Shown here in pieces: positions 8,170-61,476 of a stretch of DNA of 64,000 nucleotides; position 1 is the first letter of the stretch; each line of letters begins with the position of its first letter. Source of the DNA: a virus; the IMG/VR virus record IMGVR_UViG_3300042564_003823, positions 32,189 through 96,188 of that record; one strand, 5' to 3'. The notes beneath the pieces are model-generated. The model was not told the origin of the DNA. It saw only the letters and a program-made list of their open reading frames with translations, and did not search any database. The translations under genes were made by a program, and so were the position numbers.

Positions 8170-11100
8170 TTATACATCATCAAAAGATGCTCCTGTTGGT
8201 GTGATAACAAACTCGATGTCAATGTATTCTAACGCTCTTGTTGGTTTCAAGAAGATTTTACCTGTAAGGGTGTTTGAATCTAAATCTTCAGGTGTGTTAG
8301 AAACCGTAACTCTAAAGTCAATTAGACCTCTATCTCTTCTGATTGAATCTAAAATCGGGTTAACTGAATCTAAGAATTGTTGTCTTACTTTATCATCATT
8401 TTGTTCAAACAATAATCTAACCGCCACAGCTGAAATTAACTTACGAGCTTGTAGTAATAATCTTCTTACGTTGATTCTATCAAGTGCAGACTCTCTAACT
8501 TGTAATGTTTTGTTACCCCAAATTACTGTACCTACATCTGAGAAAGTGGCGATCGGGTTAATTCTACCTTTGTAAAGAGTATCCCTATCTTCTTGAGTTA
8601 ATTTTTTACGAGCTCTAATTGCGTTTACCAAACCTCTTGTATAACCTGCTGACGCAAACCAAGGGAACGCAATGTTATCGGTTAATGCCAAATTTTTAGT
8701 TACTTCTGCGGTTACAGGGATATAGATTTGAGTGTTATTAACAGTATCTCTTGTTAATACCCATGGATAGTATGTTGCGGTATAGTTAGAATCAATTCCT
8801 GTACTTTCTAAATTATCAACAACCTCTTGAGGGTAAATTAAACCTTCTTCAATATCTTGGTAAGAAGGTAAGAATAGGTTAAAGTCTGGTGTTGTACAAA
8901 TATAAATTGAATCCGCTCTATCGGTTTCAACCATATCAATAGCATCCTCAACTAAATTTGAGTTATTAACATAATCAATACCAGGTGTTGTGAATACATT
9001 TATGTTTGTTGATTCAGGATTAGCAAAAGTATCTTGACCCCATTTGTAAGCGTAGTAATCAGTATTTGCCCAAGTCTCTTGATTTGGTCCTGAGATTTGT
9101 TTAAATGCTCCCCATCCTGATGCCGTTGGGAAACTTACTGAAGACGCTGCTCCGTATTTAAATCCAGCCTGACCTAAAGCGAATGTATCACCATTAGTTC
9201 TATATTCTCTATAGATATCCCATCCGTCAAATCCACCGTAAGCTAATACTGTAAATTTACGAGTATTTAATCTGAAATATGGATTATCCGAATCTAAAGG
9301 TTCACTATTAAACGACCCAGCACCAACTTCAAACGCTTGTGTGTATGCTGATGTTAATACATTATACATTGTAACAACAGTCGCCCCACTATCCATGTGG
9401 AAACCTTTTGTTTTATAACCCCAACCAAGACCTACTGTATCGGTAGCTAAGTTTGCTGGAATTTGTTTTCCTTTGTATTCGAAGAAATCGTAATCGATTC
9501 CGGTAATATTTGATATACCTAAATATGCCTTTCTTGGATTTTCGCCGTTAGAAATAACAGGATTGTCTCCACCTGAAGACGACCCAAAAGGAGGGTTATA
9601 TATTACTTCACCTGCCTGTAAGTATTTAGTTTTGTAGATAACAAATGGTGGTGTTGAGTTTGCATATTCTCTAGAGACATAACCTTCAAAACCACAAGCG
9701 ACTGCATCTGTCGGTGCTTCGTCACTCATCTCTAACATTACGTATTTAGACTTAACTTCATACTCACCATTAGATGTACCAATTTTATTAGCAACATAGT
9801 TATTTTGACTAGGATCCATTGAACAATTTGTAAAACTTTCAACTACCCTTACATTTTGGTCGTTATCATAAAAATCTCTAATGAATACATCAAAAGTTCT
9901 ATTTGAGAATGAAATATTACCAATAGACATTTTAACTAATCTATTTGCTGCGTTACCATCAGAAATAAGTTTGAATTTAAATAATTTAAAAACTTTACTA
10001 CCTCTTAATTCTGAAACAATATATGGAGTCTCAGGTGTTTGGTATTGTTCTAAATAAAATGCGATTGAGTCACTATAATCTTGTATATTTGAGTCATCAG
10101 TAACACCTGGAAGTGATATTAATGAATTATATATACCTCTAATTTTCCCGTTTCTATAACCATTAAGTAATAAACTTGAGTAAACTTCCTCAACAAATAA
10201 AGGAACTTCATTTCTATCTTTACCAAAATTACTTCTTCCAAAAACTTTGGAGATGTATTCTGAGTCTGTTGAAGATAAAGAAGTTTCAAAACTAAAGTTT
10301 TGAGAATCATTTGTTATACCTGAAATAACAAAAGTTTCAAATGGATTTAGTGACACTCCCGAATAAGATCCTGTTGTGATGATATTAACGCCAGTAGTTG
10401 CACTTACTTCAAAATTAGGACCATGTTGTGTACTAGAATAATTTGTAATACCTCTTGATCTTAATGTTGCAACAACTAAATCATCATAATCACTATATGG
10501 TGTTCCTGAATAAGTAGTCCCATAAATAGCGACAGATCCTGAATACCCTAAAGCCACGTTTGAAATTGTGTTTAATGATGCCCCAAATCCATATCCATTG
10601 TAACTACCAACACTTTGTGATTTTGTATAATCAAACAATGCGTAGTACCAAGGATCGTTTAAATAAGAGCTTAAATCATTATTTGCAAAAATAACATTGT
10701 CAACACCGAACGTTTCAGTAACTGCGGTAGTGTTAAATGGTGATCCTGTAACTGCTGCATATGTTGTAGAATCAACTGAACCCCAAAAATAAGATGTTTT
10801 TCCTGATAACGGTGATGCTGTTGCAAATAAACCAACTTGTGCTGAAATATAATTTTGAAAATCTAAATATAGACTTGAACTATCACCATTTGCTGTAGTA
10901 TATTGGTTATAAAAATCTGCAGATATTAATGATGGTAACGAAGGTAGTATTGTTATATTAGTACTTGAACCTGTAGTACCTGTAAAATATACATAACCAA
11001 TAGGTGTTGGAGACGACCCTGTTACACCAATAGTTGTACTATCTAAATTACCTATTGTAACAATAGACCAAGATGGCCCTGCGTCATAACCTGATAAACC

Positions 11101-11391
11101 TAATATTCTTGTAACAAATAATTGATTTGATTGTTGTAAATATGATTTTGCAATATACGAAGTTTCATATTTAGGGATTTGTGTGTTTACGAATTTCTCT
11201 GGACTTGTTCCACCGAAATAAACTTGATACTCGTCAAAGTTAGTGATAAATATAGGTTCAAATGCTGGACCCTGTAAGGTCTCACCAACTAAACCTAATG
11301 TTGTTACACCAACACTTTGAGCAACGAAAGTTAAGTCTCTTTCTGAGGTATAAACACCTGGAGAAACGAATACTTTTGTACTAGATGCCAT
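8170..11391 (-). CDS. Tail sheath protein (T4 gp18-like)
   Basis: N-terminal SPGVYTSERDLT; C-terminal PWFASAGYTRG, LYKGRINPI, WGNKTLQ, DRINVRRLL, FEQND, IFLKPTRALEYIDIEF. Confidence 0.95.
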   Translation of the reverse strand: MASSTKVFVSPGVYTSERDLTFVAQSVGVTTLGLVGETLQGPAFEPIFITNFDEYQVYFGGTSPEKFVNTQIPKYETSYIAKSYLQQSNQLFVTRILGLSGYDAGPSWSIVTIGNLDSTTIGVTGSSPTPIGYVYFTGTTGSSTNITILPSLPSLISADFYNQYTTANGDSSSLYLDFQNYISAQVGLFATASPLSGKTSYFWGSVDSTTYAAVTGSPFNTTAVTETFGVDNVIFANNDLSSYLNDPWYYALFDYTKSQSVGSYNGYGFGASLNTISNVALGYSGSVAIYGTTYSGTPYSDYDDLVVATLRSRGITNYSSTQHGPNFEVSATTGVNIITTGSYSGVSLNPFETFVISGITNDSQNFSFETSLSSTDSEYISKVFGRSNFGKDRNEVPLFVEEVYSSLLLNGYRNGKIRGIYNSLISLPGVTDDSNIQDYSDSIAFYLEQYQTPETPYIVSELRGSKVFKLFKFKLISDGNAANRLVKMSIGNISFSNRTFDVFIRDFYDNDQNVRVVESFTNCSMDPSQNNYVANKIGTSNGEYEVKSKYVMLEMSDEAPTDAVACGFEGYVSREYANSTPPFVIYKTKYLQAGEVIYNPPFGSSSGGDNPVISNGENPRKAYLGISNITGIDYDFFEYKGKQIPANLATDTVGLGWGYKTKGFHMDSGATVVTMYNVLTSAYTQAFEVGAGSFNSEPLDSDNPYFRLNTRKFTVLAYGGFDGWDIYREYRTNGDTFALGQAGFKYGAASSVSFPTASGWGAFKQISGPNQETWANTDYYAYKWGQDTFANPESTNINVFTTPGIDYVNNSNLVEDAIDMVETDRADSIYICTTPDFNLFLPSYQDIEEGLIYPQEVVDNLESTGIDSNYTATYYPWVLTRDTVNNTQIYIPVTAEVTKNLALTDNIAFPWFASAGYTRGLVNAIRARKKLTQEDRDTLYKGRINPIATFSDVGTVIWGNKTLQVRESALDRINVRRLLLQARKLISAVAVRLLFEQNDDKVRQQFLDSVNPILDSIRRDRGLIDFRVTVSNTPEDLDSNTLTGKIFLKPTRALEYIDIEFVITPTGASFDDV

Positions 11392-11677: not shown

Positions 11678-12907
11678 CTAAACTAAAACTGCATTAGTTT
11701 TTATGATTGAATTCTGAGTTATGTCATCTTTATAAACTATAATTTTTAAAGTATCCCCATTGTTAATTTGTATTACTTGCACATTGTCTCCTAAATAATT
11801 ATTATTAATAAAAACAGAATAACTTGAAGCGCAAGATGATCCCTCATTAAATGTACCTCCAGTTGTATTACTAAAAGATGGTAAGGTTGAGGATTTAACG
11901 CAAATATTACCTGAGTCACCAATATTTGTAGATATTGTGGTCGTTGCTCCGCTACAGTTAATATAGGTCAATGTATTATTTGTTATTGACGAATAAGTGG
12001 TTTCATAACAATTGATTAAATTAGTTGTTTCGTTAATTGTTATGTCTGCAGTATATCTAAAAACTTCATTCAATTGAGTAACTCCCGAAACAAATAATAA
12101 ATCTAAATCAAAACTGTCGGGTCTTGCTGGTTCTATTTCAACTCTACGACCTCTTTTTTTATTATCAAACTCAAATAGTGTAACTTGTCTTGTAATTGCT
12201 GGTGACACTTGAAATTCTTCTTCATCTATTAACATACCCTTTAATGTTATTTTATAACTTTGAATGTAATACTTTCTTTTTTCTATTTCTTTGGCTGATT
12301 CATCAGTCGGGTCTTCTAAGGTCATTTGCATAAAGTGACCTTTTATTTGTGTATACGCTTGTTTAGAGGTAAATTTTTGCATCATTATTTTGTTGAACTC
12401 ATTTACCTCTCTCATTCTATTACAAAAAATCTTAACTGTATAGGTAATATCAACAGGAACCGGTTGAGGTATTTTATATACGTCAGCGCCTTTTCTTTGC
12501 CCATCCCAAGTAGGGACCGTATAATAAAAAAATCTTAATCTCTCAGGTATATTATAAGCACCATTATTAATTTTACCGTATTTAACTTCGGGTTGTCTTA
12601 CAGTTATAATAAACGGTAAAGAAACGTTTTTATCTAAATCTTGAAACTCCCAAGTCTCTGTAAATTGAGTCCAACTTTGTGTTGTAATTATTTTATCGAC
12701 AGTAGGGACCGTTTTACCATCGACCACTAATTTTAAATCATTTTTAACAAAATCTAACACACCTTTATCCATGTCGGCATGTAATACTCCTTTTGGTAGA
12801 AAAGTTCCACCATCCGTAATATCATCCAACATTTGTTGTCTTCTTTCTTTTCCAACTTTGGTTGGTATTAAAGGAAGGTGTTTTTTGTTTTGTTTTGGTA
12901 ATGCCAT
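11678..12907 (-). CDS. Tail completion/terminator protein (gp15-like) with a C-terminal extension
   Basis: PFIITVR, PVPVDITYTVKIF..RMREVNEF pattern; adjacent to neck and sheath genes. Confidence 0.6.
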   Translation of the reverse strand: MALPKQNKKHLPLIPTKVGKERRQQMLDDITDGGTFLPKGVLHADMDKGVLDFVKNDLKLVVDGKTVPTVDKIITTQSWTQFTETWEFQDLDKNVSLPFIITVRQPEVKYGKINNGAYNIPERLRFFYYTVPTWDGQRKGADVYKIPQPVPVDITYTVKIFCNRMREVNEFNKIMMQKFTSKQAYTQIKGHFMQMTLEDPTDESAKEIEKRKYYIQSYKITLKGMLIDEEEFQVSPAITRQVTLFEFDNKKRGRRVEIEPARPDSFDLDLLFVSGVTQLNEVFRYTADITINETTNLINCYETTYSSITNNTLTYINCSGATTTISTNIGDSGNICVKSSTLPSFSNTTGGTFNEGSSCASSYSVFINNNYLGDNVQVIQINNGDTLKIIVYKDDITQNSIIKTNAVLV

Positions 12908-22009: not shown

Positions 22010-22969
22010 TTAATCATTATAAACTTCAAATGTTAATGTATTATTAGGGGAAAATTGATTTTTTATTCTTTCTGTGGTTGTTAATATGATGCCACCCTCA
22101 TTTTCTAAATCAACCGAAAAAGTACCAAGAGTACTAATGATATTATCATTATTCAAAGCAATAACCAACTCGTCAATACTATTAACTTCATTATAATCAC
22201 CATAAATTGTTTCTACGGAGTTTTCTCCAATGGTACCGGCATAAATCCTAATAGTTATGTTACCATAAGGAAATTTACTAGTGTTTAAACCATATGCAAC
22301 AAAAGGAGTTGTCGGACCTTGATTGATAGTGATCTCAACTGGTGTATAGTATAATGCGTTATCTATATTACTACCATCAAAATACATCTCAACAAAAATT
22401 GCCGAATCCTTTTCAGTATAATTACTAACGCCTGTTATCCCAATCGGAGGAAACCCAGACCAATTAAATGGGTATTTAATTGACATATTTATTTTTGTTT
22501 TAGCTCTCGGAAAAGAATTAAATAAAGGTCCTGTACTATTATTAACCCCTATGTAATAACCATTACCACCAAACGGATTCTGTTCCCAAGATATTTTATA
22601 CCCAAGAGTATTTTCTAATACATCAACAATTAAACCACCACCTGATGTTAATTCTGAATTGTTACCCCAAAAATTAGGAGTTTCTCCTGTTGCAATAAAA
22701 ACACATCCGGTTTCATTAATTGTTCCCGATTCTACATATGCAATGTTACTAAAATCGTCACCCGACTGATATGATGTTATTGTATATGATTCACCAATTA
22801 TTAATCCATAGTTAAATTGACCGATATTGGTTCCTATTATACTTCCTGTTTGAGTTAATAATGCCCTATAAACACCTGTGTTATTAATTGTTGTTGTTCC
22901 TGTGACAATTAAGTTACCGTTTATTGTTTGTGCTGATAAGTTATTTACTATATATTTAGTTGTCTCCAT
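22010..22969 (-). CDS. Tail fibre / decoration protein
   Basis: Rich in Thr/Gly/Asn; VYRALLTQTG motif; located in the fibre cluster. Confidence 0.55.
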   Translation of the reverse strand: METTKYIVNNLSAQTINGNLIVTGTTTINNTGVYRALLTQTGSIIGTNIGQFNYGLIIGESYTITSYQSGDDFSNIAYVESGTINETGCVFIATGETPNFWGNNSELTSGGGLIVDVLENTLGYKISWEQNPFGGNGYYIGVNNSTGPLFNSFPRAKTKINMSIKYPFNWSGFPPIGITGVSNYTEKDSAIFVEMYFDGSNIDNALYYTPVEITINQGPTTPFVAYGLNTSKFPYGNITIRIYAGTIGENSVETIYGDYNEVNSIDELVIALNNDNIISTLGTFSVDLENEGGIILTTTERIKNQFSPNNTLTFEVYND

Positions 22970-22971
22970 TA

Positions 22972-26100: not shown

Positions 26101-26168
26101 GTCTTTTTAATTTATAAATATCTTTACTTTTTTATTTATTTTATTAATAAAATTAAATTAATTAATTT

Positions 26169-44264: not shown

Positions 44265-44265
44265 C

Positions 44266-45778: not shown

Positions 45779-45779
45779 T

Positions 45780-46373: not shown

Positions 46374-47137
46374 TGGTTTCAATTGTTTATAGTGGTAGAT
46401 TAGGTAACAATTTATTTCAATACGTTGCATCATATATTTTTGCTAAAAAATTTGGTTTTAAAATATCATCAAATATTGTCGAAAACAAATTTAATTTACC
46501 ATCGTTATACGGAAATAGTGAATTTTCTAAAACAATAAATGTGGATGATAACAATTTTATGTCTCTATTGAATTCAGATAAATTAGGTATGGCTCACTAT
46601 CACTTCGTAGGTTATTATCAAATTAAAGATTTTATTTTAGAATATCGTAATGAAATAAAACAAATGTTTAATCTTTCATATTTACCTAACACCAAAGATG
46701 AGGTTTTTGTTGCGTACAGAATTGGTGATATCAACGGAATTAGACAAATGTTACCATATGAATATTATGAAGACGCTTTAACCAAAATAAACCCAATTAG
46801 TGGTTATATAACTTCAGACACGCCAGACCATCCTAATGTTTTACGTTTGATTGAAAAATTCAATTTAAAAAATTATAACGGATCACCTTTAGAAACTATT
46901 GATTTTGCTAAAAATTTTAACAATTTAGTGTTAAGTGAAGGTAGTTTTAGTTGGTGGATAGGATTTTTAAGTAATGCGAAAAACATTTATTTTAATGATA
47001 GGGAAAGGTTTTGGCATGGGGACATGTTTGTAATACCTGAATGGAAACCCCTTAAATACGATTGGGATCCATCATGTGTAGGAGTAAATAATATTTTAAA
47101 ATGTAAAAAAATAAAAAAACATGAAAATAGCCTTTGA
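46373..47137 (+). CDS. Second GT11-like alpha-1,2-fucosyltransferase
   Basis: GRLGNNLFQY, GYYQ, YRIGD, GSFSWW. Confidence 0.75.
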   Translation: MVSIVYSGRLGNNLFQYVASYIFAKKFGFKISSNIVENKFNLPSLYGNSEFSKTINVDDNNFMSLLNSDKLGMAHYHFVGYYQIKDFILEYRNEIKQMFNLSYLPNTKDEVFVAYRIGDINGIRQMLPYEYYEDALTKINPISGYITSDTPDHPNVLRLIEKFNLKNYNGSPLETIDFAKNFNNLVLSEGSFSWWIGFLSNAKNIYFNDRERFWHGDMFVIPEWKPLKYDWDPSCVGVNNILKCKKIKKHENSL

Positions 47138-47747
47138 TATTGGTGCAAACATCGGACAAACGATTGACGCATTATTTAATGATTATGATAAAATAATTGC
47201 CTTTGAAGCAAACCCAAATTTGGCTTTAAATTTAAAATCGCGATATACACAAGATAAAATTATAATTGAATCTTTAGGTGTATCTGATAAAAATGAGGTT
47301 AAAACATTTAATATTTCAAATTCACATGTTGTTTCAACCTTTTCAAATGATTGGATTACAAACTCTAGATTTACTGGTGTTTATAATTGGGATACGACAA
47401 TTCAAGTAAATACAATCACATTAGATGATATAATAAAAAAATATGGTATTCCATACTTTATTAAAGTAGATGTTGAAGGATATGAATACGAAGTCTTTCA
47501 AGGATTAACGTCATTACTTGAAGAAACTTATTTTGCTTTTGAATGGGCTGAGGAACAATATGAAAAAATAAATCAAACTATAGACTATTTAAAAAGTTTA
47601 GGTTATAGTAATTTTGATTATACTTACCAAGATAACCTATTGGTTTTAGAAACCATTAATTGGAAAAAATGGGAAGATTTAACTTTACATTCTGACATAA
47701 ACCCAAGTAGAAAAGAAAAATGGGGTATGATATATTTTAAAAAATAA
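47121..47747 (+). CDS. FkbM-family methyltransferase
   Basis: FDIGANIG, FEANP, IKVDVEGYEYEV. Confidence 0.88.
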   Translation: MKIAFDIGANIGQTIDALFNDYDKIIAFEANPNLALNLKSRYTQDKIIIESLGVSDKNEVKTFNISNSHVVSTFSNDWITNSRFTGVYNWDTTIQVNTITLDDIIKKYGIPYFIKVDVEGYEYEVFQGLTSLLEETYFAFEWAEEQYEKINQTIDYLKSLGYSNFDYTYQDNLLVLETINWKKWEDLTLHSDINPSRKEKWGMIYFKK

Positions 47748-47748
47748 A

Positions 47749-48726
47749 ATGAAAAAAACACTAATAACAGGAATTAACGGACAAGATGGTTCATATCTTG
47801 CGGAATTTTTATTAGATAAAAATTATGAAGTTTGGGGTACCGTAAAAAGAAATTCGGTATCAGAAACGCAATCATCAAGAATTGAGTCATTAAGAAATGA
47901 TGGTAATATTAATTTAGAGTACGCCGATTTAACAGATATGGCGTCTTTAGTAAGAGTATTACAAAAAGTTCAACCAGATGAAATTTACAATTTAGCTGCA
48001 CAATCACATGTAAGGGTTTCATTTGATCAACCCATTTATACCGCAAACGCAACTGGATTAGGTACTTTAAATTTATTAGAAGCGGTTAGAATGGTTTCAC
48101 CACATTCTAAAATTTATCAAGCGTCTTCTTCAGAAATGTTTGGTAATTCAATTGACAAGGATGGATACCAAAGAGAAACAACACCGATGAATCCGGTATC
48201 ACCTTATGGTTGTGCTAAAGTTTTTTCATATAATATTTGTAGAAATTACAGAAACTCATACGGAATGAAAATATGGAATGGTATTCTTTTCAACCACGAA
48301 TCACCAAGAAGAGGAACTAACTTTGTTACTAATAAAGTTGTAAAGGCAGCAGTAAGAATTAGTTTAGGGATACAAGACAAATTACATATTGGTAATTTGT
48401 CCGCAACTAGAGATTGGGGTCATGCTAAAGATTATGTCGAAGCAATGTGGTTAATGTTACAAACAGATAAACCAGATGATTATGTATGTGCAACAGGAGT
48501 ATCTCATTCAGTTAAAGATTTGTGTGAATATACCTTTAGTTCATTAGGTTTAAATTATTTAGATTATATTGTTGTCGATGAAAAACATTTCAGACCTGAA
48601 GAATTAGAAAATTTAAAAGGAGATTCTTCAAAAATAAGAAAAGAAATATTATGGCAACCTACATATACTTTTGAAACAATGATAGATGAAATGATAGAGT
48701 ATTGGTTAAATTATTATGGAAAATAA
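47749..48726 (+). CDS. gmd: GDP-mannose 4,6-dehydratase
   Basis: LITGINGQDGSYLAE, NLAAQSHV, YQASSSEMFG, SPYGCAK, NHESPRRG, RDWGHAKDYV. Confidence 0.96.
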   Translation: MKKTLITGINGQDGSYLAEFLLDKNYEVWGTVKRNSVSETQSSRIESLRNDGNINLEYADLTDMASLVRVLQKVQPDEIYNLAAQSHVRVSFDQPIYTANATGLGTLNLLEAVRMVSPHSKIYQASSSEMFGNSIDKDGYQRETTPMNPVSPYGCAKVFSYNICRNYRNSYGMKIWNGILFNHESPRRGTNFVTNKVVKAAVRISLGIQDKLHIGNLSATRDWGHAKDYVEAMWLMLQTDKPDDYVCATGVSHSVKDLCEYTFSSLGLNYLDYIVVDEKHFRPEELENLKGDSSKIRKEILWQPTYTFETMIDEMIEYWLNYYGK

Positions 48727-49630
48727 AATATTAGTTACCGGTGGTTATGGTTTAGTTGGGACTGAATTTGCACAAAAAAAATATGTAAAGCCAACATCAA
48801 TAGACGTTGATTTTAGAAACACAAGTGAAGTTAATGAATTTTTTAGTTTAAACCATTTTGATGGAATTATTCATTGTGCTGCTAAAGTTGGTGGAGTTGG
48901 TAGTAATATGAATTTCAAGGGAGAGTTTTTTTACGATAACATAATGATGAACACAAATGTCATTGAATCTGCCAGACGTTTTGGTGTTAAAAAATTAGTT
49001 GCGTTTTTATCTACTTGTGTTTTTCCTGATAAAGTAGAATACCCCTTAACTGAATCAAAAATACATTTAGGTCCTCCACATTTTTCAAATGATGCATATG
49101 CGTATGCTAAAAGAATGGCTGACGTACAAATAAGATCTTATAGAGAACAATATGGACTTAATTATACGTCGGTAATACCTACAAACATTTATGGTCCTAA
49201 CGACAATTACAACATAGAAAATGGTCATGTAATACCATCATTAATTCACAAGTGTTATTTGGCAAGAGAAAATAAAACAGATTTTAAAATATGGGGAACA
49301 GGAAAACCATTAAGGGAGTTTATTTTTAGTAAAGATGTTGCAAAATTAACAGAATGGGTTTTAGAAAACTACGAAGAAAGTGAACCAATAATACTTTCAA
49401 CATCTGACGAGATCTCAATAAAAGAAATTGTTGATGTAATAACTGAATTAATGAATTATAAGGGTAATGTAGTTTGGGATAAGGATAAACCTGACGGCCA
49501 ACATAGAAAGCCAAGTGATAACACTAAAATAAAAAAATATTTACCTGATTTTAAATTTACACCTCTTTATGAAGGACTAAAAGAAACTATTGAATATTTT
49601 GAAAACAATTATAATATTATAAGAAAATAA
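48716..49630 (+). CDS. fcl: GDP-L-fucose synthase
   Basis: GGYGLVG, AAKVGG, LSTCVFP, YAYAKR, PTNIYGPNDN, WGTGKPLREF. Confidence 0.95.
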   Translation: MENKILVTGGYGLVGTEFAQKKYVKPTSIDVDFRNTSEVNEFFSLNHFDGIIHCAAKVGGVGSNMNFKGEFFYDNIMMNTNVIESARRFGVKKLVAFLSTCVFPDKVEYPLTESKIHLGPPHFSNDAYAYAKRMADVQIRSYREQYGLNYTSVIPTNIYGPNDNYNIENGHVIPSLIHKCYLARENKTDFKIWGTGKPLREFIFSKDVAKLTEWVLENYEESEPIILSTSDEISIKEIVDVITELMNYKGNVVWDKDKPDGQHRKPSDNTKIKKYLPDFKFTPLYEGLKETIEYFENNYNIIRK

Positions 49631-49631
49631 T

Positions 49632-50366
49632 ATGACAAGAAAAAAACCACAACCCCAAACTGAAGATCACGAATCAAAACCCTTCTCAAAAAAAGACTTT
49701 ATAAATTCAATAGTAAAGAAAAAACAAAAAAATAAGTTTTTAACTGAAAGTCAAGAACATTATTATAACCTCCTAAGAAACAACCAAATCACAATTTGTT
49801 CGGGACCTGCGGGTGTTGGTAAATCGTACATAGCGATGAAAGCGGCGGTTGATTTATTAATGGACCCATCAAACGCATATGAAAAATTAGTTATTGTAAG
49901 ACCGGCAGTAGAAGCAGAAGAAAAACTAGGATCACTCCCCGGTAACTTAGAAGAAAAATTAGATCCCTACATTTTCCCATCTTATTACTTATTAAATAAA
50001 ATTATTGGAAAAGAGGCTCGTGAAAAATTAAAAGATGCTGAAATTATTGAAGTATTCGCTTTAGCATACATGAGAGGTATGAATATAGATAATACAATTT
50101 TAATATTTGAAGAAGCTCAAAACTCAAGTCCAAATCAAATGAAATTACTATTGACAAGAATAGGTTTCAATAGTAAATTCTTTATATCAGGGGATATTGA
50201 ACAAACTGACCGCTATAGAGACAAAAAACAATCAGGTCTTTATGACGCAATTAAAAAGTTTAATGATGTTCACGATATTGGTGTTTTTGAATTTGGTGAT
50301 GGGGATGTTGTTAGAAACCCACTTATAAGTAAGTTATTAAAAAAATATGAAGAGAATAGGGATTGA
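49632..50366 (+). CDS. phoH: PhoH-family ATPase
   Basis: GPAGVGKS, RPAVEAEEKLGSLPG, LAYMRG, EEAQN, GDIEQTD, VRNPLI. Confidence 0.92.
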   Translation: MTRKKPQPQTEDHESKPFSKKDFINSIVKKKQKNKFLTESQEHYYNLLRNNQITICSGPAGVGKSYIAMKAAVDLLMDPSNAYEKLVIVRPAVEAEEKLGSLPGNLEEKLDPYIFPSYYLLNKIIGKEAREKLKDAEIIEVFALAYMRGMNIDNTILIFEEAQNSSPNQMKLLLTRIGFNSKFFISGDIEQTDRYRDKKQSGLYDAIKKFNDVHDIGVFEFGDGDVVRNPLISKLLKKYEENRD

Positions 50367-51282: not shown

Positions 51283-52350
51283 ATGGAATTAGAAAAAATT
51301 GAAAAGATTGAAAAGTCTGTTGAAAATCTAAAAAATAAAAATGTAAGAATTTATTTTTTAGTACAAGACACTAAAGGCAACCCTAAAGCATCTGTAAAAT
51401 ACATTTACGATACCGCCTTAATTTTAAAAAACAACGGGTATAACAGCATTATTATTCATGAGTCTAACGATTATAAGGGTGTTAGTGAATGGTTAGATGA
51501 TAGATACAAAGAAATACCACATCAGTCAATTGAAGGTCAGAATCTAGCGATTTCTCCTGAAGATTTTATTGTTATTCCTGAAATTTATGGACATGTAATG
51601 GATCAATTAAAAAATTTCCCTTGTGGTAAAATCGTCCTTTGTCAGTCATACGACTATATGTTAGAAACATTATCACCTGGTATTTCATGGTCACAATATG
51701 GGTTTTTAAAAGTCATAACAACTTCTGAAAAACAAAAAAAATATTTATCTGAAATTATGAGAGGGTGTAGTTTTGATATCATAACTCCAAAAATATCCTC
51801 AGTTTTCACAAAAAAAGAAAAACCATCAAAACCATTAATTTCAATTCACACTAGAGAACCAAGAGACACGGCAAAGATTATTAAAACGTTTTATCTTAAA
51901 TACCCACAATATAGATGGATTACTTTTAGAGATATGAGAGGTATTAAATTAGAAGATTTTTCAAAATTTTTACAAGAATCGTTTGTTTCTGTTTGGGTAG
52001 ATTTAGAATCGGGATTTGGTACATTTCCTTTGGAATCAATGGCTTGTGGAACACCTGTTATTGGTAAAGTACCTTCATTAAAACCTGAATGGATGGACGA
52101 AAATAATGGAGTATGGACTTACGAATTTAATGAGATTGTCGATATAATTGCAAACTTTACTCAAAATTGGTTGGAAGATAACATTTCTGAATCATTATAT
52201 GATAACATGAAAACAACATCTGACATATATTCAACCGATAGTACGTATGAAAATGACGTTTTATCAACATTTGATGGATATATTGAAAAAAGAAAAATGT
52301 CTTTAGAAGAACAATTAGAAAAAATAAAAGAAACAACAACACAAAATTAA
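51283..52350 (+). CDS. Glycosyltransferase (GT-B)
   Basis: SGFGTFPLESMACGTPVIG (E-x7-E-like GT4 signature). Confidence 0.8.
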   Translation: MELEKIEKIEKSVENLKNKNVRIYFLVQDTKGNPKASVKYIYDTALILKNNGYNSIIIHESNDYKGVSEWLDDRYKEIPHQSIEGQNLAISPEDFIVIPEIYGHVMDQLKNFPCGKIVLCQSYDYMLETLSPGISWSQYGFLKVITTSEKQKKYLSEIMRGCSFDIITPKISSVFTKKEKPSKPLISIHTREPRDTAKIIKTFYLKYPQYRWITFRDMRGIKLEDFSKFLQESFVSVWVDLESGFGTFPLESMACGTPVIGKVPSLKPEWMDENNGVWTYEFNEIVDIIANFTQNWLEDNISESLYDNMKTTSDIYSTDSTYENDVLSTFDGYIEKRKMSLEEQLEKIKETTTQN

Positions 52351-52354
52351 AATT

Positions 52355-53167
52355 ATGGAAGAAAAAAATATATTTGATGTTTCAGTGGTATTACCTTTGG
52401 ACTCAGCAAAACACTTAGACTTTGATGAACTTTTTGGTAGAGCGATTAAATCTCTACATAATCAAACCACATCAATTAATGAATTAGTGATTGTTCACAC
52501 TAATGAAGAATCTTTAAAAATAAAATTAAACTCTTTTGATTTTAGTGGGTTAACCGTAAATATGGTTGAAAATACAGGATCTAAAGATTTTGCAACACAA
52601 GTTAACTTGGGAGTTAAAAATTCTAAAAGTAAGTGGGTTTCAATATTAGAGTTTGATGACGAATACTCTTCTATATGGTTTAAAAATGTTGATAGATTTT
52701 CTAAATCGTATGATGATGTTGATGCATTTTTACCTTTAGTTGTGGATACTGATGATAAAGGGGTGTTCGCTGGATTTACAAATGAAGCATCCTTTGCTGT
52801 TAGTTTAAATAGTGAAATTGGTATTCTAACTAATGAGGTTCTTTTAAATTATCAAAATTTTCAATCAAGTGGTATGGTAATTAAAAAATCAGTTTTTGAA
52901 AATAACGGAGGGTTTAAACCATCATTTAAACTTACTTTTGTATATGAGTACCTTTTGAGATTAACATATAACTCAGTTAAATTAATGACTATACCTAGAA
53001 TAGGGTACAAACACACCAATTTACGACAAGGATCTATTTTTTGGAATTATAAATTTGGTGAAGAAAAAATTTCAGATAACGAGGTTACTTTTTGGTTAGA
53101 GTCGGCAAAAAAAGAACATTTTTTTACCACTGACAGAGAAATAAAATACGAGCCTCAAAATGTTTAA
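52355..53167 (+). CDS. Glycosyltransferase family 2-like
   Basis: VSVVLP, RAIKSL.NQ, QVNLGV, ILEFDDEY. Confidence 0.75.
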   Translation: MEEKNIFDVSVVLPLDSAKHLDFDELFGRAIKSLHNQTTSINELVIVHTNEESLKIKLNSFDFSGLTVNMVENTGSKDFATQVNLGVKNSKSKWVSILEFDDEYSSIWFKNVDRFSKSYDDVDAFLPLVVDTDDKGVFAGFTNEASFAVSLNSEIGILTNEVLLNYQNFQSSGMVIKKSVFENNGGFKPSFKLTFVYEYLLRLTYNSVKLMTIPRIGYKHTNLRQGSIFWNYKFGEEKISDNEVTFWLESAKKEHFFTTDREIKYEPQNV

Positions 53168-58203: not shown

Positions 58204-59664
58204 ATGTCAATTTACCGTTCTTATTTTGATAAATCAAACACGTTAATATATAATTCGTATACCAATACGGCAAGAAACCCAATTGTTGAATTATTTTACG
58301 GTAGGGTAAATAATTTGGCTCAACCAATAGGATATAGCCGTTATATATTTAACATAGATTTATCTAAACTTACTGAAAAATTTTTAGATTATACAATATC
58401 AACCGGGTGTACTAAATTTAACAACATTAGTCACACTTTAAGAATGAAAAACACATCTTTTTTTGATAAAGAACTAATAAACGATAAAACATCTCAAGGA
58501 AGAAGAAGGGCAACGTCTTTTGATTTAATTTTATTTAGAATCCCTCAGAATCAACCATGGGATAGTGGTGTTGGTTATGATTACTACGATTTTGGTGTGA
58601 CAAATTTAAATGATAGATCTTTTTCACAAAGACCGTCAAATTGGTTTGAGACATTAACTATAAGTGGTTGGACGACCCCAGGCATTTACAGTAACACAAA
58701 TTCTGTCACAGGTACAGGTGTAAATTATACCGGATTAACAATTATTGATACACAACACTTTGAGTTTGGAAATGAAGATATAGAGTTTAATATGTCCAAT
58801 GAAATAAACTCAATTTTAAGTGGTGGAACTACGGGAGTTACCGGTTATGGAATTGCTTTTTTACCTCAAGTTGAAAATATTTCAGGTATGACTGAAAATT
58901 ATTCGGTTGGTTTCTTTTCTCCTTATACTCAAACTTTTTATGAGCCATTTTTAGAGACAACATATGATGATTTTATAAATGATGATAGAAATAATTTTTA
59001 TGCTGGTGTGAATAATAATTTATACTTATATATATATGAAAATGGCAACCCAATTAATTTAGACACATTACCAACGGTTGATATTTTGGATTCAAATGGT
59101 GATCCTGTAGTTGGTTTTACTTCACTTACAACTTGTTTAGTGACAAAGGGTGTTTATAAAGTTACAATATCAGGGTTCACATCAACATCAATACCGTGTT
59201 TATTTTCTGACGTATGGAAGGGGTTATCAATAAACGGTACATCTTTATCTAATGTTGAAAATGAATTCGCGGTACTTGAAACCGCAGGAAATTATCAAAT
59301 TGGAACAACAACGAGTAACCCTAAAATTTTTGGATTTTCAGTAAGTGGTATAAAACAAAATGAAAAAATATTAAATACCGACATTAGGAAAGTAAATTTA
59401 ACAATCAAACAAGCTTATTCGTCTAATTCTGTTTTAAATCCTGTGGAATGTTATTATAGAATATATGTTAGAGAGGGGGCAAATACAGAAGTACAAGTAC
59501 AAGATTGGACAAGGATAAATAAAACTCCAGACGGATACTATTTTGTTTTTGACACAACAGATAAAATACCAAATGAATATTTTGTTGACGTAAAAGTGAT
59601 AAGTGATAAAAACGTAGATACTTATAAAAGAGAACTACAATTTCAAATAGTGAATAAATTATAA
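58204..59664 (+). CDS. Virion structural protein
   Basis: SRYIFNIDL, W.SG.G, FFSPYTQTFYEPFLE; TATTTAT upstream. Confidence 0.55.
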   Translation: MSIYRSYFDKSNTLIYNSYTNTARNPIVELFYGRVNNLAQPIGYSRYIFNIDLSKLTEKFLDYTISTGCTKFNNISHTLRMKNTSFFDKELINDKTSQGRRRATSFDLILFRIPQNQPWDSGVGYDYYDFGVTNLNDRSFSQRPSNWFETLTISGWTTPGIYSNTNSVTGTGVNYTGLTIIDTQHFEFGNEDIEFNMSNEINSILSGGTTGVTGYGIAFLPQVENISGMTENYSVGFFSPYTQTFYEPFLETTYDDFINDDRNNFYAGVNNNLYLYIYENGNPINLDTLPTVDILDSNGDPVVGFTSLTTCLVTKGVYKVTISGFTSTSIPCLFSDVWKGLSINGTSLSNVENEFAVLETAGNYQIGTTTSNPKIFGFSVSGIKQNEKILNTDIRKVNLTIKQAYSSNSVLNPVECYYRIYVREGANTEVQVQDWTRINKTPDGYYFVFDTTDKIPNEYFVDVKVISDKNVDTYKRELQFQIVNKL

Positions 59665-59676
59665 AAATAAAAAATT

Positions 59677-61476
59677 ATGGCAGATAATGCACAATTATGT
59701 TACAATACAGGAAGAACTCTAAACATAAATTACAATGGTCTACCAATATCAATAGGAGATATTGTGTATGCTAATGTATCAGATTTTTCAAAGTATGGTT
59801 GTTTTGAAATTACCGATTCGGACGTAACCGGTTCAACACTAAATGCTCAAACAATATATACTGATTGTTATGATTGTTTAAATAATAACTTTGGTACTGT
59901 TACTTTTAATACTTGTAACAGTGATATAGAAGATGTTGAGGTACCAATATCTGAATTAGGTTATTTACCAACGGCAGGTGATTCTTTTTATGGTACAGTT
60001 GACGTTGTTGGTAAAATAATTTCAAGAATTACAACTTGTTGGGAAGTCCGATCAATACAACAATACCTTAATGAAGATGAATATAATAAAATAACATTAT
60101 CTTCAATAGTTGGTGCAACCACTTCTTACGTGTCGTCGGGGCAGACAACTGCTTGTGAAGAATGTTTTTTAGCAAATGCAACAACTTATTCGGTTAGTCG
60201 TTGTAATGAAGAGACTACTGATTATGTATTATTATTACCTGGGTATGATGGAAATACAATATCATACACTGATGGCACAAATATATATTGTGGTGTTGTT
60301 GGATCACAAGGTACGGGATCACCAGAATGGACATTTGTTTCTGATTATGGTAATCCTGGTGATGGTAATTTTTGTGAAGATTGTTTAGCAACAGAAAATC
60401 AAAAAATATTACTTGAAAGTTGTACGGACCCAACAAATCAACTAGTTGTTTGGTCTTCAACTTTATTTGGTATTGGTGATTATTCACATCTATCAACTGA
60501 TGATGGGTGTTTTAGAATTGTAGGACCAACGGATGAAGAAATTTCAAGTCCATATTTTTTAAATTTTGTTCCATCACCAGGATGTGATCCTTGTATTGAA
60601 TGTAATGGAATTACCTATGAGTATAGTACTTGTAGTGAAGAACCAAACAGAGGAATTGTTTATTTGTATCAATATTTACCATCAGGTACAACTTATTGGG
60701 ATCCATATCAACAATCCTGCACAACTATAGGTAATATTACAACGGGTGGTGGTGATTATACTTTATATAGTGTAAATACTTTTGATGATTGTACTAATTG
60801 TAATGAAACCTCAAATTTTGAATTATGGTATGGAACAATTTGTGAAACAGGTCAAGACATTTATGTAACAACAGTTTCATCTGCCGGATTAACCGCAGGA
60901 AACGTCGTAAAAACAATGTGGGGTTCAAATGAATACGTTTGTGTTGAATTAGATAGTGCCGCTTCAGGTGTGGATTCTGGAACGTGGTATGATACCAAAA
61001 AAGATAGTTTAGGTAATACTGAATTATATAATGGTTGCACAACATGTATTAGTACTTCAAGTATTGTTGTGGGATTAATTAAGTGTGATACGGACGAAGA
61101 AAGTTTTGTAACGATTAGTTTAAGTAATTATCTTTCAATAATTGGAAATGGATTTACTTTACCAAATTACACAATAAGAGACCAAAGACAAAATTGTTAT
61201 ACAATTACAAGTGTATGTCCACTACCTAGTTCAGCATCAACTGAAAGTATGTCTGTGGCATATTTTTTCTACAGTTGTCAGTATTGTCCTGATCAAATTA
61301 TTACAAGCGCTAATACAGAATATAACACATGTGTAATATGTTGTGAGTGTGGATCAACAGGTAGTACAGTTAACTCGGTATCTACGCCTCACCCTATCTA
61401 CACTGATGGTTATAATAACCCTATAATGCAATTAAACATGGTTGTATTAGGTGGACCAAATGGTTTAAATAGTTAA
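59677..61476 (+). CDS. Cys-rich repeat protein (about 8 CxxC-terminated units)
   Basis: CYDC, CEEC, CEDC, CDPC, CTNC, CTTC, CQYC, CVICCEC. Confidence 0.6.
   Translation: MADNAQLCYNTGRTLNINYNGLPISIGDIVYANVSDFSKYGCFEITDSDVTGSTLNAQTIYTDCYDCLNNNFGTVTFNTCNSDIEDVEVPISELGYLPTAGDSFYGTVDVVGKIISRITTCWEVRSIQQYLNEDEYNKITLSSIVGATTSYVSSGQTTACEECFLANATTYSVSRCNEETTDYVLLLPGYDGNTISYTDGTNIYCGVVGSQGTGSPEWTFVSDYGNPGDGNFCEDCLATENQKILLESCTDPTNQLVVWSSTLFGIGDYSHLSTDDGCFRIVGPTDEEISSPYFLNFVPSPGCDPCIECNGITYEYSTCSEEPNRGIVYLYQYLPSGTTYWDPYQQSCTTIGNITTGGGDYTLYSVNTFDDCTNCNETSNFELWYGTICETGQDIYVTTVSSAGLTAGNVVKTMWGSNEYVCVELDSAASGVDSGTWYDTKKDSLGNTELYNGCTTCISTSSIVVGLIKCDTDEESFVTISLSNYLSIIGNGFTLPNYTIRDQRQNCYTITSVCPLPSSASTESMSVAYFFYSCQYCPDQIITSANTEYNTCVICCECGSTGSTVNSVSTPHPIYTDGYNNPIMQLNMVVLGGPNGLNS

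What the first reader, a model, noticed from the sequence alone, without database searches (positions are those of the whole stretch)
8170..61476. Candidate phage-encoded virion glycosylation system: a shared [S/T]-[G/A]-x-[T/S] sequon in structural proteins plus a large glycan locus
Seen: the tetrapeptide [ST][GA]x[TS] (SGGT, TGST, SATT, SANT, SGLT, TGVT, SAYT...) recurs in structurally unrelated virion proteins. Hand counts are ~14 in the 300-aa 30173..31075 protein, ~12 in 31101..33029, ~7 in 58204..59664, and many in 22972..30166 and 59677..61476. It also occurs in the C-terminal extension of the gp15-like protein (SGVT, SGAT, TGGT). The tail sheath has ~10 copies, clustered in the variable insertion region (VTGSS, FTGTTGSS, LSGKT, TTAVT, VSATT, YSGVS, ISGIT, DSGAT, TSAYT) and nearly absent from the conserved C-terminal core. 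By contrast I find about 1 in the 966-aa polymerase and 2 in the 587-aa helicase. The same window encodes ~12 glycosyltransferase genes, GDP-fucose synthesis and three methyltransferases. Known: sheath insertion domains face outward, and virion glycosylation is described for some actinophages and giant viruses. Inference: the motif is a sequon used by phage GTs to coat the particle with a fucosylated, O-methylated glycan.
Basis: partly seen in the sequence, partly recalled or inferred. Interest (0 to 1): 0.9.

Follow-up and report, generated by a model that had tools for sequence, protein, structure and literature searches.

The report
Sequon-like motif on jumbo-phage tail proteins
The tail and fibre proteins of this uncultured aquatic jumbo phage carry a short Ser/Thr-Gly/Ala-x-Thr motif far more often than chance, next to a large phage sugar-building locus, so the phage may sugar-coat its own tail, but nothing yet shows that sugars are attached.

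Summary
In 11 virion-type proteins of the window, [ST][GA]x[ST] occurs 113 times against about 46 expected from local shuffles (z about 11). The other 47 proteins have 16 against 19.5. Five re-ordered versions of the pattern are not enriched. The sharper form is hydrophobic-[S/T]-[G/A]-x-Thr-hydrophobic, 36 against 2.6. The excess is specific to the lineage: eight other phages give ratios of 0.8-1.55, this clade 2.4-2.9. It occurs in unrelated proteins.

The glycan locus is real. Four conserved soluble glycosyltransferases (GTs) flank a cassette with GDP-fucose synthesis, fucosyltransferase-type GTs and three FkbM methyltransferases. Relatives carry different sugar genes at the same site.

The sequon reading is only partly supported. 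In its favour: motif density stays constant while positions change, the motif sits in loops, and it travels with the four GTs down to a 44%-identical relative. Against it: hydrophobic flanks, five-residue periodicity inside shuffled fibre modules, and no identified protein-GT in this genome. Relatives encode a true TibC/Aah-type protein O-glycosyltransferase, but it does not track the motif.

The scan noted the same motif earlier on other DNA (e1-5979999, e1-5633868, e1-5403072).

The parts
8170..11391 (-). Tail sheath (1073 aa) with a large variable insert; 11 motif copies, 8 of them in residues 110-400
   Evidence: phrog_23 tail sheath E=1.8e-54. Pfam sheath C-terminal domains. 56 orthologs carry 11-18 copies, many at fixed positions. 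Motif positions.
11678..12907 (-).
   Evidence: 3 observed against 1.1 expected, z=2. SGVT, SGAT and TGGT seen at residues 274, 319 and 349. No PHROG or Pfam match.
22010..26100 (-). Two fibre-cassette proteins (319 aa and 1042 aa); the larger has 13 motif copies and Asn-rich repeats
   Evidence: 13 against 3.8, z=4.9. The enrichment remains outside paralogous segments, 10 against 3.2.
26169..26894 (-). LamG / ConA-like lectin-domain virion protein; motif not enriched
   Evidence: Pfam Laminin_G_3 E=1.6e-16. phrog_8510 virion structural protein. 2 motifs against 1.6.
26898..30166 (-). Two fibre proteins (360 and 671 aa) sharing three copies of a roughly 60-residue module built of pentads hydrophobic-[ST]-[GA]-x-T (for example ISATT ISGTT FYGDG SNLTG ISGGG)
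   Evidence: 16 against 5.0 and 23 against 10.4. Module seen. Motif starts are spaced 5, 10, 15 and 20 residues apart. Weak phrog_4577 tail protein.
30173..31075 (-). 300-aa modular tail fibre with a conserved N-terminal attachment domain; the densest motif carrier (14 copies)
   Evidence: 14 against 3.1, z=6.6. 116 homologs; whole shaft modules are inserted or deleted between them.
31101..33029 (-). Core 642-aa ConA-like jelly-roll protein with Cys-rich insert loops; 12 motif copies, 9 of them in loop or low-confidence segments
   Evidence: 12 against 1.7-2.4. 1483 homologs. AF2 pLDDT 62, pTM 0.68. Motif mapping. Weak lectin-fold matches. Density 13-15 across all identity bins.
35714..36925 (+). 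Conserved GT-B-like glycosyltransferase (403 aa), a lineage core gene
   Evidence: Weak Pfam Glyco_trans_1_4 match. 82% identical in G001 and 81% in G002, 50% in the complete genome G014. 210 IMG/VR relatives at 55-93% identity among the best 80. No motif copies.
36922..38249 (+). PolB-type 3'-5' exonuclease and a true dUTPase, lying between the conserved GTs
   Evidence: Pfam DNA_pol_B_exo2 and dUTPase. NCBIfam dUTP diphosphatase 151.7 bits, above the cut-off of 103.
38255..39895 (+). Conserved two-domain glycosyltransferase (GT2_5 plus GT4)
   Evidence: Pfam E=1e-31 and 8e-13. 78% identical in G001, 42% in G014.
39888..49630 (+). Variable glycan cassette: GT2, GT11 (fucosyltransferase type), FkbM methyltransferase x3, GT10-like, a second GT11-like, four unassigned ORFs, GDP-mannose 4,6-dehydratase and an epimerase/reductase
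   Evidence: Pfam. No orthologs in G001 and only partial ones in G002. G001 has a different cassette at the same site. No multi-pass membrane protein. Homologs in cyanophage P-SSM2.
49632..50366 (+). PhoH-like ATPase; conserved right border of the variable cassette
   Evidence: Pfam PhoH E=5e-63. 82% identical in G001 and 78% in G002.
51283..53167 (+). Two further conserved glycosyltransferases (GT-B-like 355 aa; GT-A/GT2-like 270 aa)
   Evidence: Weak Pfam GT1 and GT2 matches. PDB 8xsg putative GT, E=1.6e-6. 68-74% identical in G001/G002, 40% and 47% in G014.
58204..61476 (+). Two proteins of unknown function (486 and 599 aa, the second Cys-rich) with motif excess; virion role assumed, not shown
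   Evidence: 7 against 1.4 (z=4.7) and 8 against 3.5 (z=2.7). No Pfam or PHROG match. The G002 ortholog of 58204 has 13 copies.

Best explanation
The element hydrophobic-[S/T]-[G/A]-x-Thr-hydrophobic is a short strand-loop-strand unit. This phage lineage keeps it at high density on the outer parts of its tail: fibre shafts, the sheath insert and loops of a lectin-fold protein.

The most likely reason is that it is read as an acceptor tag by a soluble phage enzyme in the cytoplasm before assembly. The best candidates are one of the four lineage-conserved glycosyltransferases (35714, 38255, 51283, 52355). The neighbouring variable cassette would then extend the sugar. In this phage that would be with fucose (GMD, reductase, GT11/GT10-type GTs) and O-methyl groups (three FkbM enzymes).

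Shown: the motif statistics, its lineage specificity, its conservation of density, the gene content and the variability of the cassette.

Inferred: that any GT acts on protein, which residue is the acceptor, and the glycan composition.

The tag and a structural role need not exclude each other. The heptosylated S-G-G-[T/S] loops of AIDA-I are both.
For: - Enrichment is order- and spacing-specific and confined to virion-type proteins. Window: 95 against 26.3 for [ST][GA]xT. Other proteins: 6 against 8.6. G001: 20 proteins have 320 against 101, the rest 132 against 129.
- It is lineage-specific. Ratios in Ser/Thr-rich proteins are about 1 in T4; phiKZ 1.0, Che8 0.8, P-SSM2 1.46 and HTVC008M 1.27; Flavobacterium phage immuto 1.04 and Mel-JY01 1.55; G016 0.86. 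This clade gives 2.4-2.9 and G014 1.75.
- It is present in non-homologous proteins and outside repeated segments. G000 has 109 against 59 in unique regions.
- The ConA-like family keeps 13-15 copies (2.4-4 expected) at all divergences. These spread over 113 alignment columns, of which only 5 are near-universal. Against the G014 homolog, 12 and 10 copies share only 2 positions.
- Nine of 12 copies in that protein lie in loop or low-confidence inserts around a jelly-roll core.
- The four GTs are conserved with the motif down to 40-50% identity.
- The island has no Wzx/Wzy/ligase/initiating-transferase-like membrane proteins.
- The cassette is swapped between relatives like a serotype locus.
- Protein O-glycosylation is plausible in this group. 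Relatives encode a true BAHT enzyme inside the fibre cassette.
- The canonical BAHT substrate AIDA-I is built on a similar S-G-G-[T/S] loop, SGG 46 against 6.6.
Against: - No GT here resembles a known protein glycosyltransferase.
- This genome has no BAHT, even in the fully covered slot where relatives carry it. BAHT does not track the motif either: the complete genome G016 has BAHT but no excess.
- Hydrophobic flanks, Thr-only last position and 5/10/15/20-residue spacing fit a beta-solenoid or hairpin unit.
- Two thirds of the copies in G001 come from shuffled fibre modules.
- Within 56-95% identity most sites are positionally fixed.
- The TATTTAT(A) element found 5-33 nt before structural genes is absent before the GT genes.
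- Cyanophage P-SSM2 has homologous GMD, reductase, FkbM and GT11 genes with little motif excess.
- Co-occurrence with the GTs is confounded by common descent.
Confidence: 0.42

Rival explanations
1. The motif is purely structural. It is the repeat unit of a lineage-specific fibre shaft fold (pentads hydrophobic-S/T-G/A-x-T, about 15-residue super-period) and a favoured tight turn. Recombination of fibre modules spread it into loops of other tail proteins.
For: - Hydrophobic residues occupy 61% of position -1 and 50% of position +4, against a 34% background. Contexts are shown.
- Motif starts peak at spacings of 5, 10, 15 and 20 residues.
- Whole modules are inserted or deleted between fibre homologs.
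- Two thirds of G001 copies lie in paralogous segments.
- The 31101 protein contains LSATTLSGLS, which resembles the fibre module ISATTISG.
- In the confident part of the sheath model the copies sit at strand/loop borders. SAST at residue 177 of the ConA-like protein is a hairpin turn.
- Peripheral O-antigen GTs also lack membrane segments, so one search does not exclude a lipid-linked acceptor.
- P-SSM2 homologs of the sugar genes exist.
Against: - Seven control phages with Ser/Thr-rich fibres, three of them at a similar GC content (33-36%), show at most 1.55x.
- The motif occurs in non-homologous globular proteins.
- Its number is held constant while positions turn over. A fold requirement would instead fix positions.
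- No Pfam pentapeptide or other repeat family matches, and no solved structure resembles the module.
- Four GTs that are core genes of a lytic jumbo-phage lineage are unexpected for an accessory host-surface function.
Confidence: 0.38
2. The motif is a recognition tag for something other than a glycosyltransferase. Candidates are another modification (for example phosphorylation or acylation of Ser/Thr), a fibre-assembly chaperone, or a binding surface for host glycans or ions.
For: The same statistics apply as for the tag reading. Nothing ties the motif chemically to sugar. No protein-GT is identified.
Against: No kinase, acyltransferase or dedicated chaperone candidate was seen among the conserved neighbours. 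The only conserved enzyme set that travels with the motif is the GT set.
Confidence: 0.1
3. The conserved GTs glycosylate phage DNA (hypermodified bases) and the motif is unrelated to them.
For: Two conserved GTs flank an exonuclease and a dUTPase. Phage GTs that decorate DNA with varied glycans are cited in PMC12619734 (its reference 46, seen). Complete relatives encode a ThyA-family protein.
Against: - That ThyA homolog scores above the equivalog cut-offs for ordinary thymidylate synthase (334 bits against 325; 311 against 108). 37647 is an ordinary dUTPase.
- No ThyA-like gene was found in G000-G003. The Tet/JBP search also returned nothing, but its control rang nowhere, so it is uninformative.
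- Fucosyltransferase-type GTs and O-methyltransferases are not known from DNA glycosylation (my own knowledge).
Confidence: 0.05
4. The excess is a by-product of Ser/Thr/Gly-rich composition or of the reader picking the pattern after the fact.
For: The pattern was chosen by eye. The enriched proteins are 16-30% Ser+Thr.
Against: z is about 10-14 under 8- to 30-residue local shuffles. Five permuted patterns are not enriched.
Confidence: 0.01

Closest known systems
Virion O-glycosylation of mycobacteriophages by phage-encoded glycosyltransferases (Freeman et al. 2023, Cell Host Microbe; known here only through citations in PMC12619734)
   Same: A tailed phage with its own soluble GTs. The proposed target is its own virion proteins, modified in the cytoplasm.
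   Different: In mycobacteriophages, glycans sit at the C-termini of the capsid and tail-tube subunits, and two to four GT genes are involved. Here a defined internal motif lies on sheath insert, fibres and a lectin-fold protein, with nine or more GT-like genes, sugar-nucleotide synthesis and methyltransferases. Che8 shows no excess of this motif (ratio 0.8). No chemistry exists for this phage.
Bacterial autotransporter heptosyltransferases TibC/Aah acting on TibA and AIDA-I (BAHT; PMC4358343)
   Same: A cytoplasmic enzyme glycosylates Ser in a short strand-loop-strand element that recurs periodically in a beta-helical protein. AIDA-I is built on S-G-G-[T/S] (SGG 46 against 6.6), close in form to [ST]-[GA]-x-T. 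Relatives of this phage encode a true family member: TIGR04414 at 270.8 bits against a cut-off of 200, with catalytic Asp and four iron-finger Cys conserved.
   Different: The window's genome has no BAHT gene, even at the syntenic fibre-cassette slot. BAHT-positive G016 lacks the motif excess. In relatives BAHT sits beside a giant (G-T-N/S-G-T)n protein, which is more likely its substrate. The phage motif ends in Thr and has hydrophobic flanks, unlike NSGG.
Chlorovirus PBCV-1 capsid glycosylation (virus-encoded GMD/GMER, fucose-containing and O-methylated glycans, multidomain GT-methyltransferase A064R; my own knowledge, not checked here)
   Same: A virus-encoded GDP-fucose pathway plus GTs plus methyltransferase, used to decorate the virion independently of host machinery at non-canonical sites.
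   Different: PBCV-1 is a eukaryotic virus with N-linked glycans on the major capsid protein. No sequence relationship was tested.
Cyanophage 'LPS/cell-surface' gene clusters, e.g. Prochlorococcus phage P-SSM2
   Same: Homologous genes: GMD 50%, reductase 38%, FkbM 47% and GT11 26% identity. They form a cluster in a large aquatic myovirus.
   Different: The function of the cyanophage cluster is unproven and usually ascribed to host-surface change. P-SSM2 shows only a weak motif excess (1.46, partly from a collagen-like protein). It lacks the four conserved GTs of this lineage (one search shows no hits).
'Moraphages', large aquatic phages predicted to infect Bacteroidota (PMC12619734)
   Same: An aquatic jumbo-phage lineage with family-B polymerase, four putative GT orthologous groups among its core genes, and glutamine synthetase. 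This clade has four conserved GTs and a GlnII gene in relative G011.
   Different: Identity of the two lineages was not tested, because no moraphage sequence was held. The paper does not report any motif or propose a sequon.

Membership tests
BAHT (TibC/Aah autotransporter strand-loop-strand O-heptosyltransferase, TIGR04414) | Protein scoring above the TIGR04414 cut-off (200 bits) encoded in this genome | tested here: not met
   Pfam GT9 search and phmmer/tblastn with the relative's domain find nothing in G000. The syntenic slot (window 22-31 kb) is fully covered and holds no such gene. G000 is only 31% complete.
BAHT (TibC/Aah autotransporter strand-loop-strand O-heptosyltransferase, TIGR04414) | Catalytic Asp110 and the four iron-finger cysteines (C339, C342, C358, C370 of TibC) | tested here: met
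   Met in relative G002 only: 978-aa fusion of GT4 + BAHT + FkbM, 270.8 bits. Alignment to TibC 4rap has E=1e-66 with Asp and all four Cys aligned (residues as in PMC4358343).
BAHT (TibC/Aah autotransporter strand-loop-strand O-heptosyltransferase, TIGR04414) | Substrate with periodic S-G-G-type acceptor loops in a beta-helix | tested here: inconclusive
   AIDA-I has SGG 7x and SGG[TS] 7.2x. The phage motif is similar in form and periodic, but it does not co-vary with BAHT.
Mycobacteriophage-type virion glycosylation | Phage GT genes beside structural genes | tested here: met
   The GT island starts 2.7 kb from the fibre/ConA-like gene block and ends 5 kb before further motif-rich genes.
Mycobacteriophage-type virion glycosylation | Glycans on C-termini of capsid and tail-tube subunits, shown by mass spectrometry | not testable with these tools
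   No proteomic data exist. The capsid gene is not in the held 96 kb. Motif copies are internal, not C-terminal.
GDP-L-fucose de novo pathway (GMD + GMER/Fcl) | GDP-mannose 4,6-dehydratase | tested here: met
   47749-48726: Pfam GDP_Man_Dehyd 412 bits, full length.
GDP-L-fucose de novo pathway (GMD + GMER/Fcl) | GDP-4-keto-6-deoxymannose 3,5-epimerase/4-reductase | tested here: inconclusive
   48716-49630: generic NAD epimerase/dehydratase match at 171 bits, adjacent to and overlapping GMD, 38% identical to the P-SSM2 neighbour of GMD. No equivalog-level model was run.
Wzx/Wzy- or ABC-dependent surface-polysaccharide loci | Initiating polyprenyl-phosphate transferase, flippase, polymerase or ligase (multi-pass membrane proteins) | tested here: not met
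   A hydropathy scan finds no multi-segment protein between 33 and 54 kb. No such Pfam family was matched.
Pentapeptide-repeat proteins (Pfam PF00805 and relatives) | Match to a pentapeptide-repeat profile | tested here: not met
   No Pfam family at E<=0.1 for the fibre proteins, although motif starts are spaced in fives.
DNA base glycosylation systems (T4-type) | dNMP hydroxymethylase or base dioxygenase supplying the acceptor | tested here: not met
   No ThyA-family match in G000-G003. The Tet/JBP search found nothing, but its control rang nowhere, so it is uninformative. The ThyA homolog of complete relatives scores as true thymidylate synthase.
General O-glycosylation of Bacteroidota (acceptor D-[ST]-[AILVMT]) | Excess of the D-[ST]-[AILVMT] sequon in the candidate substrates | tested here: not met
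   22 observed against 25.2 expected in the 11 virion-type proteins.

The most novel reading that the evidence does not exclude
A whole lineage of aquatic jumbo phages tags the exposed parts of its tail with a dedicated acceptor motif (hydrophobic-S/T-G/A-x-T-hydrophobic). Four conserved cytoplasmic GTs glycosylate it. A swappable gene cassette sets the outer sugars (here fucose and O-methyl sugars), giving related phages different 'virion serotypes'.
Probability: 0.33. Interest if true: 0.85.

Novelty: new variant of a known kind. Interest (0 to 1): 0.62.

Why it matters
Virion glycosylation of tailed phages has been shown only for a few actinophages and without a defined acceptor motif. If confirmed, a defined motif with a conserved enzyme set and a hypervariable sugar cassette would have three consequences:
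- Glycosylated phage particles could be predicted from sequence.
- It would explain why large aquatic phages carry so many sugar genes.
- It would point to selection on the particle surface (adsorption, grazing, stickiness, decay) in abundant uncultured phages.

It is directly testable by co-expressing a small fibre or sheath fragment with four genes. If the motif turns out to be purely structural, it still defines a new, widespread fibre repeat, and the target of the sugar island stays open.

Tried and rejected
- **Composition artefact:** rejected by local shuffles and permuted patterns.
- **DNA-level motif:** rejected. Codons are mixed, including both serine codon families.
- **Low-GC effect:** rejected. 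Controls at 33-36% GC show no comparable excess.
- **General property of tail fibres:** rejected with T4, phiKZ and immuto. The one strong control hit (P-SSM2 25115-26794) is a collagen-like G-P-T repeat.
- **Hidden homology between sheath insert and ConA-like protein:** none.
- **BAHT as the enzyme that reads the motif:** rejected for this genome and as a general correlate.
- **DNA glycosylation:** no hydroxymethylase; the ThyA homolog and the dUTPase are ordinary.
- **Bacteroidota sequon:** not enriched.
- **Pentapeptide-repeat family:** no profile match.
- **No result:** megablast and tblastn of the island and fibre against cultured phages; PDB sequence searches for 35714, 38255 and the fibre; NCBIfam on the GTs.
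- **AlphaFold of the sheath:** poor, mean pLDDT 38.6. Only residues 117-298 were usable.
- **Search for the 35714 GT outside the lineage:** the best 80 loci are all members of the lineage, so an independent co-occurrence test was not possible.

Full report
**What the DNA is.** The window is the last 64 kb of a 96,188-bp IMG/VR virus record. CheckV rates the record 31% complete. GC content is 30%. No cultured phage is close: the family-B polymerase reaches only 24-26% identity to Salinibacter and Nostoc phages, and megablast finds nothing. The tail sheath has 467 relatives in IMG/VR, the best 80 at 75-98% identity, on contigs of up to 229 kb. Near-complete relatives are 274-292 kb. I pulled several relatives whole: G001 (229 kb), G002 (166 kb), G003 (112 kb), and later the complete genomes G014 (288 kb) and G016 (373 kb). 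A 2025 paper describes 'moraphages', aquatic jumbo phages with four core glycosyltransferase (GT) groups, glutamine synthetase and predicted Bacteroidota hosts (PMC12619734). This clade also has four conserved GTs and a GlnII gene. Identity of the two lineages was not tested.

**The observation.**
- In 11 virion-type proteins the pattern [ST][GA]x[ST] occurs 113 times. Whole-protein shuffles give 38.6, and shuffles within 30-, 15- or 8-residue blocks give 44-49 (z about 10).
- The five other orderings of the same residue classes give ratios of 0.73-1.55.
- The remaining 47 proteins of the window have 16 against 19.5.
- In G001, 20 proteins hold 320 copies against 101 expected, and all other proteins hold 132 against 129.

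**Sharper form of the motif.** The last residue is Thr: SGxT 5.0x, SAxT 8.7x, TGxT 3.8x and TAxT 2.2x, while Ser-ending forms give 0.4-2x. The spacing is fixed, and hydrophobic residues flank both sides. In the window [ILVFY][ST][GA].T[ILVFY] occurs 36 times against 2.6. Codons at motif sites are mixed, including both serine codon families, so selection acts on the protein.

**Controls.** For proteins with at least 18% Ser+Thr, the observed/expected ratios are:
- about 1 in T4;
- 1.0 in phiKZ, 0.8 in mycobacteriophage Che8 (a cluster F1 phage; its close relative Maravista is reported as presumably capsid-glycosylated, abstract of PMC11256854), 1.46 in P-SSM2 and 1.27 in Pelagibacter phage HTVC008M;
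- 1.04 in Flavobacterium phage immuto and 1.55 in Microcystis phage Mel-JY01;
- 0.86 in the unrelated complete jumbo phage G016.

The clade itself gives 2.4-2.9, and the distant member G014 gives 1.75 with six strongly enriched proteins. The one strong control hit is a collagen-like G-P-T repeat. The excess is therefore real and lineage-specific. It is not a general property of fibres or of low GC content.

**Anatomy of the carriers.** The sheath is confirmed, and 8 of its 11 copies lie in the variable insert.

The fibre block 22010-31075 contains modular proteins. 26898-27980 and 28151-30166 share three copies of a roughly 60-residue module. Homologs of the 300-aa fibre differ by insertion or deletion of whole modules. 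Within these modules the motif is the unit of a five-residue register, for example ISATT ISGTT FYGDG SNLTG. Distances between motif starts peak at 5, 10, 15 and 20 residues. About two thirds of the G001 copies lie in such paralogous segments.

The excess is not only in repeats. Unique regions of G000 have 109 against 59. Some non-repeat proteins are very rich. The 642-aa protein 31101-33029 has 12 against about 2. Its family (1483 homologs) has a median of 14 against 2.5. Its AlphaFold model (pLDDT 62, pTM 0.68) shows a jelly-roll core with weak lectin-fold matches, and 9 of 12 copies lie in loop or low-confidence inserts. The sheath and this family share no detectable homology.

**Conservation pattern.** Among close relatives most sites are positionally fixed. 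Over larger distances the number is conserved while positions change.
- 55 distinct homologs of the ConA-like protein keep 13-15 copies (2.4-4 expected) from above 80% to below 50% identity.
- The neighbouring GTs and exonuclease have 0-1 copies.
- The copies occupy 113 alignment columns, of which only 5 are near-universal.
- The window protein and its G014 homolog (33% identity) have 12 and 10 copies with only 2 shared positions.

This is the behaviour expected of a selected tag density. It is less expected of a fold requirement. One caveat applies: alignments of loops at this distance are uncertain.

**The glycan locus.** Pfam supports the following:
- 38255 (GT2_5 + GT4), 39888 (GT2), 40621 (GT11), 46373 (GT11-like) and 52355 (GT2, at the cut-off);
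- weaker GT matches for 35714, 41974 (GT10-like), 44266 and 51283;
- three FkbM methyltransferases;
- GDP-mannose 4,6-dehydratase (412 bits) and an adjacent epimerase/reductase.

No protein of the island has multiple membrane segments, so no flippase, polymerase, ligase or initiating transferase is encoded. 35714-38255 and 49632-53167 are conserved in G001 and G002, but 39888-49630 is not. At the same site G001 has a different set: RmlD-like reductase, dehydratase, two methyltransferases, GT4 x2, GT2 x2, a GT32-type enzyme and UDP-GlcNAc 2-epimerase. All four conserved GTs persist in syntenic order in G014 at 40-50% identity. The best 80 IMG/VR relatives of 35714 are all within the lineage. 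None of the GTs matches a known protein glycosyltransferase.

Relative G002 encodes a 978-aa fusion of a GT4 domain, a BAHT domain and an FkbM domain. The BAHT domain scores 270.8 bits against the TIGR04414 cut-off of 200. Its alignment to TibC has E=1e-66, with the catalytic Asp and all four iron-finger cysteines conserved (features from PMC4358343). In IMG/VR, 360 stretches encode relatives. Five large ones, three of them near-complete, carry sheath orthologs at 64-77% identity. The canonical substrate AIDA-I is built on S-G-G-[T/S] loops.

BAHT is nevertheless not the reader of this motif.
- It is absent from G000, G001 and G003 and from five further fragments.
- In relatives it sits in the fibre cassette between the polymerase side and the 31101 gene. 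The window covers that slot fully and holds no BAHT there.
- Its usual neighbour is a giant (G-T-N/S-G-T)n protein in which [ST][GA]xT is depleted.
- The complete genome G016 has BAHT but neither the four GTs nor the motif excess.

The result shows that protein O-glycosylation enzymes are part of the fibre cassettes of this phage group. It does not link them to the motif.

**Other readings of the island.** DNA glycosylation lacks its prerequisite. G000-G003 hold no ThyA-like gene. A Tet/JBP search also found nothing, but its control rang nowhere, so it is uninformative. The ThyA homolog of complete relatives scores as an ordinary thymidylate synthase, and 37647 is an ordinary dUTPase. Modification of host surface glycans cannot be excluded, because peripheral O-antigen GTs also lack membrane segments and P-SSM2 carries homologous sugar genes. 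The TATTTAT(A) element lies 5-33 nt before the starts of several tail and fibre genes (tape-measure candidate, sheath, 22972, 30173, 31101, 58204) and of a few others such as the helicase 14641, and precedes none of the GT genes. So co-expression with virion genes is not shown.

**Verdict.** I put about 0.42 on a modification tag, most plausibly O-glycosylation by the conserved soluble GTs with the cassette setting the outer sugars. I put about 0.38 on a purely structural fibre or turn element with the island acting elsewhere. The remainder goes to another kind of tag or to DNA modification. The two leading readings can both be true, as in AIDA-I. No chemistry exists. A co-expression and mass-spectrometry test with four GT genes and one small substrate would decide.

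Noticed in passing
L097:5945-8881 (relative G002, minus strand): 978-aa three-domain enzyme: a GT4-like domain, a true TibC/Aah-type protein O-heptosyltransferase domain (all catalytic and iron-finger residues kept) and an FkbM methyltransferase. It lies beside fibre genes. 360 IMG/VR stretches encode relatives.
   Followed up: yes
L180:12414-20825, L203:14231-19621, L187:13505-16723: Directly beside the BAHT gene, relatives encode giant proteins (1072-2803 aa) made almost wholly of G-T-N / S-G-T / G-T-S tripeptide repeats (37-39% Ser+Thr, about 25% Gly). Smaller T-P-T repeat proteins lie nearby. These are likely the real BAHT substrates, a phage analogue of hyperglycosylated adhesins.
   Followed up: partly
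L097:1209-5945 (relative G002): A G002-specific block next to BAHT: a TuaG/PglI-like GT2, a weak SunS-like (peptide S-glycosyltransferase) match, an FAD oxidoreductase and an Fe(II) dioxygenase. None has a homolog in G000, G001 or G003.
   Followed up: partly
window 3507, 5493, 7015, 11423, 14628, 16405, 17139, 26113, 31088, 33041, 33060, 53923, 58182: TATTTAT(A), oriented with the gene, lies 5-33 nt before the start codons of tail, fibre, neck-side and a few other genes. It precedes none of the GT island genes. It is too close to the start for a usual leader.
   Followed up: partly
window 22972-26100 (-): The 1042-aa fibre-cassette protein has two long Asn-rich stretches (residues about 300-560 and 700-830) of degenerate repeats such as IGNDFNNNTI / IGNNFQDNQI. 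This repeat differs from the Ser/Thr motif.
   Followed up: no
window 59677-61476 (+) and 31101-33029 (-): Both proteins are unusually Cys-rich, with C-x-C and C-x2-C clusters. This suggests disulfide or metal knots in exposed inserts. The Cys-rich segments of 31101 are the parts AlphaFold could not model.
   Followed up: partly
window 13502-13918 (-): A 138-aa ORF (TTG start) contains no Gly and no Ala at all. It begins with a hydrophobic, signal-like stretch and has no homolog in G001-G003.
   Followed up: no
L374:4093-6666 (relative G011): A GlnII-type glutamine synthetase lies next to a thymidylate synthase that carries an insert (372 aa), and a UvrC-like nuclease is nearby. Glutamine synthetase is a feature the 'moraphage' paper (PMC12619734) lists for its lineage.
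   Followed up: partly
window 40621-49630 versus P-SSM2 193-205 kb: Prochlorococcus phage P-SSM2 carries homologs of the window's GMD (50%), reductase (38%), FkbM (47%) and GT11 (26%) in one cluster. This points to exchange of sugar cassettes among unrelated aquatic myoviruses.
   Followed up: partly
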